Part shown: positions 27,001 to 63,000 of the stretch, piece after piece
Numbering within the stretch: the first letter of the stretch is position 1
How the letters are laid out: every line of letters starts with the position of its first letter
Source: Negaprion brevirostris
Lineage: Eukaryota
Assembly: GCA_030324005.1 (NCBI GenBank)
Contig: JARDVH010000121.1
Span: 9,991,059-10,055,058, forward strand
DNA length: 64,000 nucleotides
Reading direction: 5' to 3'
Program-made: the position numbers

Positions 27001-30000
27001 TATTATGCATCTCATTCTTCCGTTTTCTTTATTTTTTAATTACAGCTTCTCATCCGCCTTCCAAGTTACTTCATATCAAGTGCACCACATTCAAGTTCAA
27101 CATACCATATTATATTAAGTTGCTATACACCCCTTTCCCACGGTAGTGCCACCAGTTACGTGCTGCCAGGATGTGAATCTCTCCTACTTGCATCATGCCT
27201 TAAACTTTCTGCGCATGTAATAGTAATGGATATGATTGCTGTTTTCCTTATTATTTTAGTGGAATTGTTCTGGTAGAAATGTTAGTTCTATTCTTCGAAT
27301 GAACTAAACGATCATGATTTCAGCAATTGTTACTATCAAGTCCCACTTTGGAGTTTCATTCTGAGCTTCCCAAAATATATCTTCGAAACTCAATACATGT
27401 TCACTCGGTCCAAAGAGAGAACGAGGATTTTTGGATCACGGACTTCTGAATGCAGGATGTTCTTCACGTCCCCAATAGTTTTTTTTTGTGTTGGCGGCAG
27501 GAAGGCAGGATGTACGATAATATATAACAAAGGTAACAAAAAAAAACTCTGTCCCTTCGAATATGGGATCTTTCAGAACTACTGTATCGCTAATTTTAGA
27601 AGTTGCATCCCGTGATGCACTTCGTGCTTTCTTAAGACAAAACTAATGATTTAGGCATAGTATGTGTTAATAGAAGAAATATTTCAGTCCATTTTTCTTA
27701 ACCGAATTGAATCTTCGAACATGCTATCCAAGTTCGCTGTTTTGGAAACTGAAGACTGTTCCGTCGACGATGAGATTTACAAATTATAGCAATATGCGCT
27801 TAACTGACTTTGTGATTCTGCTCAATCGTTCAGCAAGATCACCCCGATCCAATTGTAACTTCAACATTGCATTCCCGCCTACCACCGCTGACCGTTCACA
27901 CCCTTGTAAATCGCACATCCAAATAAAATCTGCAAAATAAATTTAAATTCTCCTCACATTATATTTGCAGAAAGAGCGCCCCCGAACACACTTGCATTGA
28001 AGAGCGATGAAAAATAGTATTTCAGAAATGTGCATCATCGTCTTAAACAAGGGAAACTACCTAATCACGTAAACTGGCAATATCTCTCAGAATTTTGAAG
28101 TTTTTGAAAAACACAGTTACGAATTAGCAAATTGTCTTTCACTAAAAAGAGATGAAATGACATGTTTGACTAAAATCCTTAAAGATGTTAGTTATCCACC
28201 CTTAGTGATAACTTTTACATTTATTTTCATTTATTTTCATGTACGGATCTATTCCTGGACTATCTCTCTGTCCAACATAGGCCTCCACATTTTGATCAGG
28301 AAAGCCAATGGAAATAGTTTTGATGCGAATTAGATGTTCCAGAAGTCACGTTCTCAAATGGATTATTATTTAATCGAATAATTGAAGATGAGATGAATAA
28401 AAAGAATGAAGGTAATCAATCAATGAGATTTCGGGACAATGTTTCCTCATTTCATCTTCGAGTTAAACAGAAAAATAAACTCTAAAATTATGTGGCGCTC
28501 GGGAGTGAATGCAAATCGTGTCATTATTTTGCCAATTGTCTCACTGCAGTTCCCAGCTAGCGAAATATGTTTTCTTGCACACAAATTGTAGTTTCCTGCA
28601 GTTCAGTCAGTTAATCCAAAACGATATCTCTCCAATTTTTCTCTTGGGCAATGGCGTTAACCATAGTTTCTGAATGCTGTTAAGAACTGCATTTCGGCAT
28701 TTTGTGTCATCAGTGTATGTCTTTGCGGTGGGTACGGCTCTTTAGGTTACATAGAGAATGAAATTTGAAGTGTGTTTTGTACTATAAACAAAGCCACTAC
28801 AACATAATACTTTTCCTGCAGGATATGTTTGCTGCCTGGCTTGGTAGGATTGGGGCCAATGACTGTTGCACACTCTGTCCAACAACTTCCCGCATCTTCC
28901 CTCATTCACCCATTCACCACGTGACCACCTCAATTTTCAAAACTGCAATTATTGGAAGGACAAATTTTATCAGATTTAAAAATGTGAATTAATGTTTCGA
29001 AGCGTCCGTCATGAAATCAGCAGCGCGTATTGGTTTTAATTATTCAAGGATTTGAGGACTTTGTTTATGATACATGTAAAGTGTGGCATCTTCTCCCGAA
29101 AAAAAATATAAACTGTTGCATCTTGTACATAAAGATGCCATGTTTGCAGATGAAATTTTTAGGGCCAAAGTTTCTTCGCCATACTTATGTTGCAGCTTGG
29201 CTTTAGATTTCCATGCCAAAGTGGATTAAAGTGACTGCTTTCCTATCCATGGATAATGAATCATTTCAAAAGCTGTTGTCAATATTTTTTCTTCATTTCA
29301 GATATTACTGATGCCAACAAAACGTTGAAAGAAGCAGGTCTGAAAATGCATCTTGATATTCGAGATTTGAACACCATCAATTCACAACATTTACATTGTC
29401 ATATACTTGCCGAGCCCTCAGTGTTCCCGAAAGTTCAATATGGGTGTTTACAGTGTCAGCAAACCGATTTGACGAGCAGCAAACGTATTATTGTCAGTTC
29501 TGTTGAAAAGTTATAACACATCCAACAGAATTGTGCTGATCCAAGGAATATATGATTTCTCTCGGGATGTTTTAATGTTGTTTATTATGATGTCATATCC
29601 AAATGTATACGCCATAGATACATGTTTGAAGGAAAAGATCATCTTTGTTTGATCAAACATGAAAAAGGAAGCGCTAAATCTATAAATGCGATTGTCGGGG
29701 AGGAAGCAGAATGCAAAAGAAACGATTCAGCAATACCAGTAACCAACATGCCACACCTATCATTTTCTGCCATGCAATCAGTTGACGGCTGAAATCACTT
29801 TGCATTCAACTTCACTGGACTGATTTCCGCTATGTTTCCTTTTCGGTTCCCGTTCCTGTCTAAAATATATCGAGCTCTTTCTTAAACAAAAAACAATTCC
29901 CCCGCCTGATCGTTTCGTTGGGGAATATAACTGCAAAAGCGCACTGTGCCCTGTGAGAAACATCACTACCGCCTGCATGTATATTTCGGAAATTCCCGAT

Positions 30001-60000: not shown

Positions 60001-63000
60001 GCTGTTCGAAATGTAGGGAGAACAAGGCCACATCGTCATATTTTCTCAGCACTTACTATTGTCGCCAACGTCACTCCCAGTACATTAGCAGATACTGCCC
60101 CAAAGGTAGATACCGTGGAAACGGAGGTCAGTGTTTTGATTACCATGATACTTTCCCTATCAATATTGTCTTCAGAAGAAACAGACAGAAGCATTAGGAC
60201 GCTTTTGAATGCGATATTTTATTGTATTTGCACACGAACTTGCGATCATCTCTCTATCTTGGACCGCATACAATTGCGGAAAAACATAAATTAAAATAAT
60301 TAATTTGATCTCATTCGACTGTAAATTGACACACGTATTGTAAAAAATTAGCACAATGAATTGTGAAGCAATGACCAAATATGCANNNNNNNNNNNNNNN
60401 NNNNNNNNNNNNNNNNNNNNNNNNNNNNNNNNNNNNNNNNNNNNNNNNNNNNNNNNNNNNNNNNNNNNNNNNNNNNNNNNNNNNNNNNNNNNNNNNNNNN
60501 NNNNNNNNNNNNNNNNNNNNNNNNNNNNNNNNNNNNNNNNNNNNNNNNNNNNGCGGGGGGTGCGGTGGGAGAACAACTTTGGAGATGGGCGGAAAGACAG
60601 GTGAGTGATTTGATGTGTTTTAATGCAGTTTAAATATGTTTTCACTGTCATTACCGGGAACTTGTCGGTGCGGATTGAATTTTCCAGCACGCTAGGAGCA
60701 CTTAAGCCCGGCCAGATTTAGAGGTGCTCCACACGTTCGGGGAACTAGTGGAAGGCCCCACCGTAATGAAGCGGGGCAATCGGGGTCCAAAAAGAGATCA
60801 TTTCGGGAAAGTTTTGTCAATGTTATCTTCGAAAAAAAAATCAGCAACAGCCGTTTTAATATTTAGCATGATGAATTGAATGCGAAGTGTATATTTGTTT
60901 TTGCTAAGCTCTTCAGTGCAGTTTCCGTGGCTAGCAAACTCTTCGTTATTCAAATTGACGTTTTCTTTCCTGCAAACTTGAACAGTTCTCTTTTGCAGTG
61001 TGTTACACTTAGTCATGCTGTTGTTCACTTGGAAATGAGCTGAGCTCGTGTCCATGAGAATAGACACAAGGAGCCATTTCATGGCGAACAGCAATGGGCG
61101 AACAATTGTCTTGCCACTGTTAGTGCTGCATCAAACTATACCATCCTTGTACATTTTCACATTCTTCAATCTCCAGTTTATTTTTAACAATATATTTGCC
61201 GCTTTCTCTTTCTCAACTCGAAATTCAACATGGTACAGTCATACAGTAGTGGGTTATCGTTAACATTTGCTTACAAATTCAGTCATATGCTAAGGCAATG
61301 TTTCCCACAATAGAGGATTTTATATGTGCACTGAGAATCAATTCTGGAGCATTCGGAACAGTCTCCAGTCCTCCAAAATTCCAGTAAGATCCATGATGTT
61401 GAACAGCAAAGTCGCCGAGAGTCATGCCAGCCATAGACAAGCCCTCCCAGTTTCCACCCTTGCTATAAATCTGAACTTGTTCAAGATTTATGATTGTCGC
61501 TATTTTTGTTCTCCTGCATCGGATCTAACTGTAGTATTGCATGCTAAGACTTGGAGCCCATTGTGGATGGTAAACCCCAGATGAAGTCCGAGATGCAAGT
61601 TATTCGGGGGTGCCGTACCATTTTACACTGTTTACCATGTCTTACATCCAAAAGCTAATTTAAGGCAGATATTCCGTTTGCAGCTTCCACAAATTTTGGA
61701 TTTGTTCCTAAACAGAAAACAGGCCATATCACTTAATCCAGTTTTAACAAATGCAGCTTTCCGTTTGCTCTCTGTTCAGTCGCTCTGTCAACCTGCCATC
61801 GGTGTTGTGGATGGCTCTATAGACTGCAACATGTCTTTGAAGCTGTTTCTGTGGCAATCTGGAAAAGTATATTTCACACAATAAAAGTGTGCTCCCTATG
61901 AATAACAAACAGTCCCGTTATCTTATGGGAGACAATCAAAATGAAAATACGTTGCCTACACATACTTCAGCCTCAAAAAATCTCTGTTGTCACTCCTCTA
62001 ATAATCAAAATGTGGGCATGTAGCACAATATTTTGTTCGTGAATTCACATTGAGAAATGTATTCCACCAGCAAGGTTTTACTGACAGTGTTAGTAACGTT
62101 CATATTTCAGAAAATTTGCATGGAAAGATCATGAGTAGATGAGTTGCAAATGTCTGCTGCTTCAATACCTTAGGATTTCAAAGGAGGGTTGCAAAATTAT
62201 GCGAAGTTATTCGACAAGAACATATTTTATTTTCGTCTGTAAGATTGAAAATGTCGAATGATGTGTTTTCGAATGGTTATGTTTCAGTAGAGATAGCGAA
62301 TTGATTCCGTTCATTGATGTTTCGATCGTGCATTGTCTCAGCTGAGTTTGTCAATATTCTCAAATACCCGGTCCTATGAGATGAATTCTCATCCGTTTCG
62401 TCGCTCATTTATCACACACCCGAACATTTTCAGTTTTATAAACGGCGTCTTCACAGCGGCATTTCACGTTTTCTGCGGTATTTTAGAACTTGCATCCATA
62501 CGGAAGGCTGTAGAATGCATTTTTTTCACTGTGACCAAGAAACCTGCTTAACCTTTCCTTTGTTTCGTGTATTTTGTCTAGTTCTCAATTCACTGAAACA
62601 CCAACCATTCTTCTCATTATGAGTTTTTTTATATATTCAAATAATTTTCGAGATATTTCAGCATAAAAAAACAGCATTTGATTGGCCCTTGTTCCACCAA
62701 AGTGAAATTGCACTTCCCTTCCCCTGAACTATGCGTTTAAAGGGCAATGACGTTTGCGGTTACAATTACTCTTGGGAATCATTAAACCCATGGCATGTTG
62801 TTTTAGTTCATCTTCTGTTACATCTAAAAACGTGAACTAATTTACCTTTTTATACACTCCTAATGTAAGCTCAGAATATGAGGATGAGGTGCGTCCCTGA
62901 ATCGCAGCCAATCCTGTGGCGCAGTTTGAAACATCTCACGGTCAAATCGAATGATTATGCGCTTAGCTGAGCCATAGTGAAGGAATATGAAATGTGTTTT

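What the first reader, a model, noticed from the sequence alone, without database searches (positions are those of the whole stretch)
28388..62134. Splice-site decay confined to the distal part of the array, with reading frames still open
Seen: all seven exons up to 20997 have GT donors. Beyond that there are a deleted pyrimidine tract (28388), a +1 length change (41528), GT>TT (56367), a lost donor (58189) and a shortened copy (62111), yet none contains an in-frame stop. The damaged 56367 (36 nt) and 58189 (27 nt) are adjacent and sum to 63 nt. Inference: symmetric exons can be skipped without frameshift, and losing a 36+27 pair also keeps the heptad register, so rod length may be tuned by exon silencing. 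The alternative is a pseudogene in decay.
[Added by the scan's program, not by the reader: the finding's places include an assembly gap (unread letters, written N; its length is only estimated) at 37493 to 37502, 38186 to 38285, 46231 to 46672, 50145 to 50402, 51631 to 51695, 55015 to 55114. Whether the letters on both sides are continuous or in frame is not known: test that first.]
Basis: partly seen in the sequence, partly recalled or inferred. Interest (0 to 1): 0.7.

Follow-up and report, generated by a model that had tools for sequence, protein, structure and literature searches.

The report
Mini-exon array encoding a coiled-coil rod
The window lies inside an unidentified animal gene built from at least 22 tiny duplicated exons that spell a coiled-coil rod, and a few copies at both ends of the window, not only the far end, have lost their splice signals, which looks like ordinary turnover of duplicated exons.

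Summary
The array is real. On the + strand I find 22 related mini-exons of 27, 30 or 36 nt (832 to 59368), all in the same split-codon phase. In the proximal part a 27-nt and a 36-nt exon alternate and together encode a 21-residue, three-heptad repeat.

The fifth, 62111, resembles no family member.

Decay is not confined to the distal part. Copies at 832 and 1885 also lack GT donors, and 1885 carries an in-phase stop. Damaged copies number 2 of 11 proximal and 4 of 11 distal (Fisher p=0.64).

Open frames in the five say little, because chance alone gives 0.105. In the array's own phase the 37-nt form of 41528 does contain a stop.

The array as a whole looks constrained. 14 of 22 copies are fully canonical, similarity is mostly limited to exons, and pN is below pS.

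The best reading is birth-and-death of duplicated symmetric exons in a live gene. Adaptive length tuning is untested. Gene identity is unresolved, because the exons are too short to search singly and the joined step was left out.

The parts
832..867 (+). 36-nt family copy, acceptor AG, donor AT; damaged proximal copy
   Evidence: blastn-short to 6895 E=0.005; leave-one-out profile E=0.0019, rank 1
1139..1165 (+). 27-nt copy, AG..GT, open
   Evidence: leave-one-out E=0.58 (weak)
1885..1920 (+). 36-nt copy with in-phase stop and no GT donor; MAFFT places a 5-nt insertion; dead proximal copy
   Evidence: first 10 exon bases identical to 6895; leave-one-out E=0.052, rank 1
5146..5172 (+). 27-nt copy, AG..GT, open
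6895..6930 (+). 36-nt copy with Cys, AG..GT, open
9130..9156 (+). 27-nt copy, AG..GT, open
13019..13054 (+). 36-nt copy with Cys, AG..GT, open
   Evidence: not recovered in leave-one-out; blastn-short to 19024 E=0.14
17864..17890 (+). 27-nt copy, AG..GT, open; closest paralog of 58189
   Evidence: (E=7e-6)
19024..19059 (+). 36-nt copy with Cys, AG..GT, open
19829..19855 (+). 27-nt copy, AG..GT, open
20962..20997 (+). 36-nt polar copy, AG..GT, open; paralog of 59333
   Evidence: (E=1e-7)
28382..28411 (+).
   Evidence: (to 45816, E=0.002)
29302..29337 (+). 36-nt copy, AG..GT, open; paralog of 49227 and 56367
   Evidence: (E=2e-13)
36112..36138 (+). 27-nt copy, acceptor AG, donor GC, open
   Evidence: (to 52724, E=9e-8)
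41523..41564 (+). Copy of the 20962/59333 type. It is 37 nt from the homologous acceptor (41528) and then not readable in the array phase. It is 42 nt and open from a weak GAG acceptor 5 nt upstream. Donor GT.
   Evidence: profile support for membership is weak (E=18); upstream flank aligns with 59333 (A3)
43071..43097 (+). 27-nt copy, AG..GT, open
45816..45845 (+). 30-nt copy, AG..GT, open
49227..49262 (+). 36-nt copy, AG..GT, open
52724..52750 (+). 27-nt copy, acceptor AG, donor GC, open
56367..56402 (+). 36-nt copy, acceptor AG, donor TT, open; damaged
   Evidence: blastn-short to 29302 E=0.049; shared intron motif after the exon (A1)
58189..58215 (+). 27-nt copy, acceptor AG, donor AC, open; damaged; 146 nt from a gap
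59333..59368 (+). 36-nt polar copy, AG..GT, open
62111..62134 (+).

Best explanation
The window sits inside one large gene on the + strand, of an animal genome that I do not take for human. Its coding sequence here is a run of at least 22 tandemly duplicated mini-exons of 27, 30 and 36 nt. Introns of 0.3 to 7.4 kb separate them. All copies share one phase: each ends with the first base, G, of a split codon.

In the proximal part a 27-nt and a 36-nt exon alternate and together encode a 21-residue unit of three heptads. The 'a' positions hold Leu, Ile or Val. The successive 'd' positions hold Lys, Cys, then Leu or Ser. That is the signature of an alpha-helical coiled-coil rod.

I infer, and have not shown, that the Cys at 'd' cross-links parallel chains. 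That would suit an extracellular or lumenal stalk. The distal part mixes such units with polar 36-nt and 30-nt exons.

The copies with broken splice signals are dead duplicates, or pseudo-exons, of an otherwise constrained array. Because every exon is symmetric, loss of one copy costs no frameshift and is weakly selected against. Copies are therefore gained by duplication and lost by splice-site mutation all along the array. Rod length then drifts, and possibly varies, as a by-product.
For: Family and strand:
- Profile searches find copies only on the + strand at E<0.01: 9 of the 36-nt type and 8 of the 27-nt type, none on the - strand.
- A composition and splice filter gives 25 candidates on + and 6 on -.
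- Paralog pairs reach E=2e-13 to 0.005.

Phase and frame:
- 21 of 22 lengths are multiples of 3 and all 22 copies end in G.
- 14 of 22 have AG..GT and an open phase.
- 20-21 of 22 are open, against a chance of 0.0023 or 0.0003.

Heptads: a+d share 0.64, reached by 2 of 5000 within-exon shuffles.

Constraint:
- In 6 of 16 pairs the exon has z of 3.9 or more while every flank segment is near 0.
- Over 6 disjoint intact pairs pS=0.58 and pN=0.33, Fisher p=0.011.
- Exon purine content is 0.70 against 0.49 for the window, as expected for Glu/Lys coding and for purine-rich splicing enhancers.

Damage at both ends: 832 and 1885 proximal; 28382, 41528, 56367 and 58189 distal. There is no significant gradient.

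Known parallels: symmetric micro-exons (PMC8293314, passages read) and phase 1:1 cassette exons with lineage-specific exon loss in tropoelastin (PMC12554196, passages read).
Against: - No transcript, orthologue or protein match was available, so 'exon' rests on sequence signals and paralogy alone.
- Gene identity is unknown. No longer exon, domain or Pfam family was found in the window.
- The copies share descent, so the open-frame and strand tests overstate independence.
- pN/pS of 0.56 uncorrected is only modest constraint. Two recent pairs (29302/49227 and 20962/59333) give ratios near 1.
- Some memberships are weak in leave-one-out: 20962 E=3.3, 56367 E=1.5, 58189 E=3.1, 1139 E=0.58, 13019 not recovered. 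Pairwise hits support most of these.
- Damage is numerically higher distally, 4 of 11, or 6 of 11 with GC donors.
- The distal part also has most of the assembly gaps, so some lesions could be assembly errors.
Confidence: 0.6

Rival explanations
1. One reading: rod length is actively tuned by silencing exons, preferably in 36+27 pairs that keep the heptad register.
For: The exons are symmetric and 36+27 nt equals three heptads. The damaged 56367 and 58189 are adjacent. Skipping both would bring 52724 (27 nt) next to 59333 (36 nt) and keep the alternation. Damaged copies are still close to intact paralogs (58189 to 17864: 74% ungapped, pN/pS 0.16).
Against: An adjacent damaged pair is expected by chance 79% of the time. 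The other damaged copies (832, 1885, 28382, 41528) are not lost as 63-nt pairs. The distal register is already broken by 30-nt exons. Nothing separates selection for length from neutral loss. No expression data were available.
Confidence: 0.15
2. The whole locus is a pseudogene, or a dead part of a gene, in slow decay.
For: 6 of 22 copies are damaged and 2 more have weak GC donors. There is one in-phase stop, and a second in the 37-nt form of 41528. No flanking domain-bearing exon is seen in 64 kb. pN/pS is near 1 for two pairs.
Against: 14 of 22 copies keep both AG and GT while introns have diverged to background. 20-21 of 22 frames are open. The heptad pattern is kept. pN is below pS overall.
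Confidence: 0.12
3. Some or all distal lesions are assembly or consensus errors in a fragmented part of the scaffold.
For: 9 of 11 gaps lie between 37.4 and 60.6 kb. Both 56367 and 58189 sit on one 2.8-kb contig (55544-58360), and 58189 is 146 nt from its end. Two gaps show unclosed overlaps. The 56367 lesion is a single base against its paralogs (A1).
Against: 28382 lies about 9 kb from any gap in a 33.8-kb gap-free stretch. 58189 differs at both donor bases and in the following intron (A2). 832 and 1885 are more than 350 nt from gaps.
Confidence: 0.1
4. The 'exons' are chance AG..GT intervals and there is no array.
For: About 100 AG..GT intervals per length and frame occur on each strand, so any single interval means little. 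62111 is probably such a case.
Against: Significant paralogy in register, strand asymmetry and heptad periodicity.
Confidence: 0.03

Closest known systems
Tropoelastin-type cassette architecture (all exons phase 1:1, lineage-specific exon loss)
   Same: Every exon splits its codons the same way, so any exon can drop out in frame. Two exon types alternate. Single exons are lost in some lineages (PMC12554196, passages read: phase 1:1 splice sites; exons 34 and 35 absent in great apes).
   Different: The sequence here is charged and heptad-patterned, not Gly/Pro/Val-rich or Lys-Ala cross-linking. The exons are much shorter and more uniform. No homology was tested or claimed.
Schistosome micro-exon genes (MEGs)
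   Same: Genes made mainly of short (36 bp or less) symmetric exons that can be removed without disrupting the frame (PMC8293314, passages read).
   Different: That paper describes MEGs as restricted to schistosomes and as encoding proteins exposed to the host. This window's interspersed repeats look vertebrate-like to me, which is recall and not a tool result. The exons here form a periodic coiled-coil repeat.
Coiled-coil neck or stalk of type II C-type lectin receptors such as CD23
   Same: A heptad pattern of aliphatic residues forms an alpha-helical coiled-coil stalk (PMC6791321, passages read). From recall only: the CD23 stalk is built of 21-residue repeats, each on its own exon, with different repeat numbers in human and mouse.
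   Different: Here each 21-residue unit is split over two exons (27+36 nt). No lectin domain or membrane segment was found in the window. Membership is untested.
Tandem exon duplication with non-functional copies
   Same: Exon plus flank duplicated in tandem, with some copies losing splice signals. From the search listing and abstracts only: PMC9741552 and PMC8373072 treat tandem duplicated exons in human genes.
   Different: Those cases are mostly mutually exclusive pairs of one exon. Here at least 22 copies appear to be used in series.

Membership tests
Symmetric (phase 1:1) cassette mini-exon array | All exons have lengths in multiples of 3 and the same codon phase | tested here: met
   21 of 22 lengths are multiples of 3; all 22 end in G and read open with a 2-base carry-in, except 1885 and the 37-nt form of 41528
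Symmetric (phase 1:1) cassette mini-exon array | Copies related by tandem duplication | tested here: met
   blastn-short pairs E=2e-13 to 0.005; profile hits on the + strand only
Symmetric (phase 1:1) cassette mini-exon array | Exons actually spliced, with variable inclusion | not testable with these tools
Alpha-helical coiled coil | Heptad a/d periodicity of hydrophobic residues | tested here: met
   Proximal 8 exons: a+d share 0.64; 2 of 5000 within-exon shuffles reach it. The distal register is not continuous.
Alpha-helical coiled coil | Predicted or solved helical rod structure | not tested
   A fold needs 30 residues or more, hence joined exons; the joined step was left out by rule
Schistosome micro-exon genes | Exons of 36 bp or less, symmetric | tested here: met
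   27, 30 and 36 nt
Schistosome micro-exon genes | Schistosome genome; secreted product with longer terminal exons | not testable with these tools
   The ends of the gene lie outside the window, and no tool places the organism. The repeats look vertebrate-like to me by recall only. I do not file the array as a MEG.
CD23-like lectin receptor stalk | C-type lectin domain exons downstream of the stalk exons | tested here: inconclusive
   Pfam on 4 stop-free + strand ORFs between 62318 and 63913 gave no lectin hit, but only 1.9 kb follows the last copy
CD23-like lectin receptor stalk | One 21-residue repeat per 63-bp exon (recalled feature) | tested here: not met
   The unit is split into a 27-nt and a 36-nt exon
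Collagen-type 9-bp-multiple exons | Gly-X-Y triplets | tested here: not met
   Translations hold almost no Gly, and 30-nt exons are not multiples of 9
Unitary pseudogene | Stops, frameshifts and splice loss spread at a neutral rate; exons no better kept than introns | tested here: not met
   14 of 22 canonical; 20-21 of 22 open; exon-limited similarity; pN below pS

The most novel reading that the evidence does not exclude
A vertebrate gene built like a schistosome micro-exon gene: dozens of consecutive 27-36-nt symmetric exons, which gene predictors usually miss, encoding a disulfide-stapled coiled-coil stalk. Its length would be set, and would vary between lineages or individuals, by which duplicated exons remain spliceable. 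Paired loss of 27+36-nt units would preserve the helical register.
Probability: 0.15. Interest if true: 0.6.

Novelty: new member of a known kind. Interest (0 to 1): 0.35.

Why it matters
If transcripts confirm it, this would be an unusually long run of micro- and mini-exons used in series. It would be a clean natural case in which exon duplication and exon death change the length of a coiled-coil rod in steps of 9 to 21 residues without frameshifts. It also carries a practical warning. Arrays of 27-36-nt exons separated by kilobase introns are likely to be missed or mis-joined by automatic annotation, and fragmented assemblies can mimic exon decay. As it stands, the decay pattern itself is ordinary and shows no significant spatial gradient.

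Tried and rejected
- Rfam over the whole window: 0 matches.
- ORFs of 90 aa or more: none coding-looking.
- Tandem Repeats Finder and direct-repeat search at DNA level did not reveal the array. It is visible only through splice-aware and profile searches.
- A degenerate 18-nt donor-end motif found only one site.
Pfam on 9 stop-free ORFs gave no family above cut-off. These were four + strand ORFs and one - strand ORF at the 3' end, the read-through ORF at 759-914, two + strand retrotransposon-like pieces and one - strand ORF at 37744-38061. The one weak hit was PRAP, E=0.017, 15.7 bits against a cut-off of 27.
- Treating 62111 as a 30-nt-class copy: rejected, no similarity.
- Treating 46753-46766 as a relic copy: only E=3 to 5.6 in the profile searches, no acceptor, and a stop when I read the sequence by eye. 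Not counted.
- Collagen-like reading of the 27/36-nt exons: rejected, no Gly-X-Y.
- Literature searches for a named gene with alternating 27/36-bp exons or a split 21-residue repeat found none.
- Exon-by-exon homology search was not possible. Each exon gives 8-14 residues, under the 20-residue minimum of Pfam and PDB and the 30-residue minimum of the Atlas and the structure predictor.
- Genome contigs holds bacteria and archaea only and was not used.
Orthologues and the gene's name therefore stay unchecked.

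
Full report
**What the window is.** It is 64 kb at 30-44% GC per 2-kb window, mostly 35-42%. 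It has no ORF longer than 214 codons, and those over 127 codons run through N. It has no Rfam match and 11 runs of N. It reads as intron-rich animal DNA. I do not take it for human: several interspersed repeats and two retrotransposon-like ORF pieces look to me like those of fishes. That is recall.

**Gaps first.** Nine N runs lie inside the finding's span. The program listed six. The other three are 55534-55543, 58361-58460 and 60386-60552.
- Gap 38186-38285 is flanked by an exact 52-nt duplicate, and 3547-3653 by a 42-nt one. These look like unclosed contig overlaps, so the letters on both sides are probably continuous.
- For the other gaps nothing shows continuity.
- No family exon touches a gap. 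The closest is 58189-58215, 146 nt from 58361.
- All gaps lie in introns of the exon model, so the reading frame between exons does not depend on gap length.
- Any gap could hide a 27-36-nt exon, so counts and adjacency are lower bounds.
- I did not fill or look up any N.

**Is there an array?** Single AG..GT intervals mean little, because each length and frame has about 100 of them on either strand. A splice-weight scan nevertheless brought out a series of 27-nt and 36-nt intervals on the + strand with related translations. Profiles built from them found further copies:
- At E<0.01 there are 9 hits of the 36-nt type and 8 of the 27-nt type, all on the + strand and none on the - strand.
- A filter on charge, acceptor tract and phase passes 25 intervals on + and 6 on -.
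- Pairwise blastn-short gives 29302~49227 E=2e-13, 20962~59333 1e-7, 36112~52724 9e-8, 17864~58189 7e-6, 28382~45816 0.002, 832~6895 0.005, 29302~56367 0.049 and 1885~6895 0.14.
- Leave-one-out profiles support most copies. They are weak for 20962 (E=3.3), 56367 (1.5), 58189 (3.1), 1139 (0.58) and 41528 (18), and they miss 13019. Pairwise hits and the alignments A1-A7 cover these, except that 41528 rests mainly on its aligned upstream flank and donor (A3).

**Census.** There are 22 copies between 832 and 59368. All end in G, the first base of a split codon, and 21 of 22 have lengths in multiples of 3.
- 14 of 22 have AG, GT and an open phase.
- 2 of 22 have GC donors. They are 36112 and 52724, which are paralogs of each other.
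- 6 of 22 are damaged:
  - 832: donor AT.
  - 1885: no GT and an in-phase stop.
  - 28382: the homologous acceptor reads AA.
  - 41528: 37 nt.
  - 56367: donor TT.
  - 58189: donor AC.
- 62111 is excluded, because nothing links it to the family.

**What the copies encode.** I translated each exon on its own, supplying only the split-codon G.
- The eight proximal exons from 5146 to 20997 are four 27+36 pairs.
- Tracked by cumulative residue count, hydrophobic weight concentrates at two positions of the heptad. The a+d share is 0.64, reached by 2 of 5000 within-exon shuffles.
- Position 4 of the 9-residue exon is Leu in 8 of 9 copies, and position 7 is Lys in 7 of 9.
- Position 5 of the 12-residue exon is Cys in 4 of 10 copies, all proximal. 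Position 9 is Leu, Ile or Val in 8 of 10 (read).
- This is a 21-residue, three-heptad coiled-coil unit. Cross-linking through Cys at 'd' is my inference.
- In the distal part the 30-nt exons and the polar 20962-type copies break the register under an all-included model.

**Constraint.**
- In pairs such as 832/6895, 28382/45816, 1885/6895, 5146/9130, 9130/17864 and 6895/19024 the exon scores z=3.9-7.8 against shuffles, while all four flank segments sit near zero.
- A few pairs also keep the first 20 intron bases, and 29302/49227 keeps more.
- Over six disjoint intact pairs pS=0.58 and pN=0.33, a ratio of 0.56, with Fisher p=0.011.
- Two pairs have ratios near 1.
- Four damaged-versus-intact pairs give a ratio of 0.38, so there is no sign of relaxed constraint. 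Power is very low.
- 20-21 of 22 copies are open, against a chance of 0.0023 or 0.0003. The copies are not independent, so this overstates the case.
- The exons are 70% purine against 49% for the window.

- *Confirmed:* 56367 TT, 58189 no GT, 41528 +1, 28388 poor acceptor, and the adjacency and 63-nt sum of 56367 and 58189.
- *Corrected:*
  - The tract at 28388 is substituted, not deleted (A4).
  - From a weak GAG acceptor 5 nt upstream, 41528 becomes a 42-nt in-phase exon. Its 37-nt form has a stop in the array phase.
  - 62111 is not a demonstrable copy.
  - Decay is also proximal, at 832 and 1885.
  - The split of 2 of 11 against 4 of 11 is not significant (p=0.64; p=0.18 if GC donors count).
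  - The five open frames have a joint chance of 0.105.
  - An adjacent damaged pair is expected 79% of the time.

**Interpretation.** I read this as birth-and-death of duplicated symmetric exons in a gene that has been under selection, with rod length changing as a by-product (confidence 0.6). Adaptive tuning (0.15), a decaying pseudogene (0.12) and assembly error for some lesions (0.1) remain open.

Comparisons from papers, of which I read passages only:
- Schistosome micro-exon genes (PMC8293314).
- Tropoelastin phase 1:1 exons and loss of exons 34 and 35 (PMC12554196).
- The heptad neck of CD23 (PMC6791321). The 21-residue-per-exon detail of CD23 is recalled, not seen.
- For PMC9741552 and PMC8373072 I saw only the search listing and abstracts.
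- Searches for a named gene with this exon pattern found none.

**Left out.** I searched nothing with joined exons and folded nothing. Single exons are below every tool's minimum length, so the gene's name, its orthologues and its structure stay unchecked.

Noticed in passing
window 55534-55543, 58361-58460, 60386-60552: Three N runs inside the finding's span that the program's list omits. The second lies 146 nt after the damaged copy 58189-58215.
   Followed up: yes
window 3505-3546 / 3654-3695 and 38134-38185 / 38286-38337: Exact 42-nt and 52-nt duplicates directly flank two N runs. They look like unclosed contig overlaps rather than missing sequence.
   Followed up: yes
window 36112-36138 and 52724-52750: Two paralogous 27-nt copies both have GC in place of GT at the donor and Thr in place of the usual Lys at position 7. 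The exon and acceptor are well kept (83% over 42 nt), but the intron after the donor is not. This may be a shared weak donor or a shared old lesion.
   Followed up: partly
window 832-19059: Cys at position 5 of the 12-residue exon occurs only in proximal copies (832, 6895, 13019, 19024). The distal 36-nt copies have Ala, Thr, Tyr or Ser there.
   Followed up: partly
window 37256-38375, + strand: ORF pieces that look to me, by recall, like the polymerase end of a non-LTR retrotransposon. They are interrupted by two N runs and sit in the intron between 36112 and 41528. Pfam gave no hit.
   Followed up: partly
window 2540-2600, 2772-2832, 51985-52045; 18605-18682, 54934-55011; 35675-35729, 49852-49906; 47417-47526, 55124-55233: Several dispersed repeat families at 62-78% identity, probably interspersed elements in the introns.
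   Followed up: no
window 41729-41777: A 21-nt tandem repeat, 2.3 copies at 96% matches, lies 165 nt downstream of the copy that ends at 41564.
   Followed up: no
window 46753-46768: A short stretch resembling the 3' end and donor of a 36-nt copy, about 80 nt after the 442-N gap. It has no acceptor and has a stop upstream, and profile E is only 3 to 5.6. It may be a relic or chance.
   Followed up: partly
window 832-905: After the copy at 832 the frame stays open for 13 more codons to a GTATGT donor-like site, which would give a 74-nt interval. That length is not a multiple of 3 and so does not fit the array phase.
   Followed up: partly
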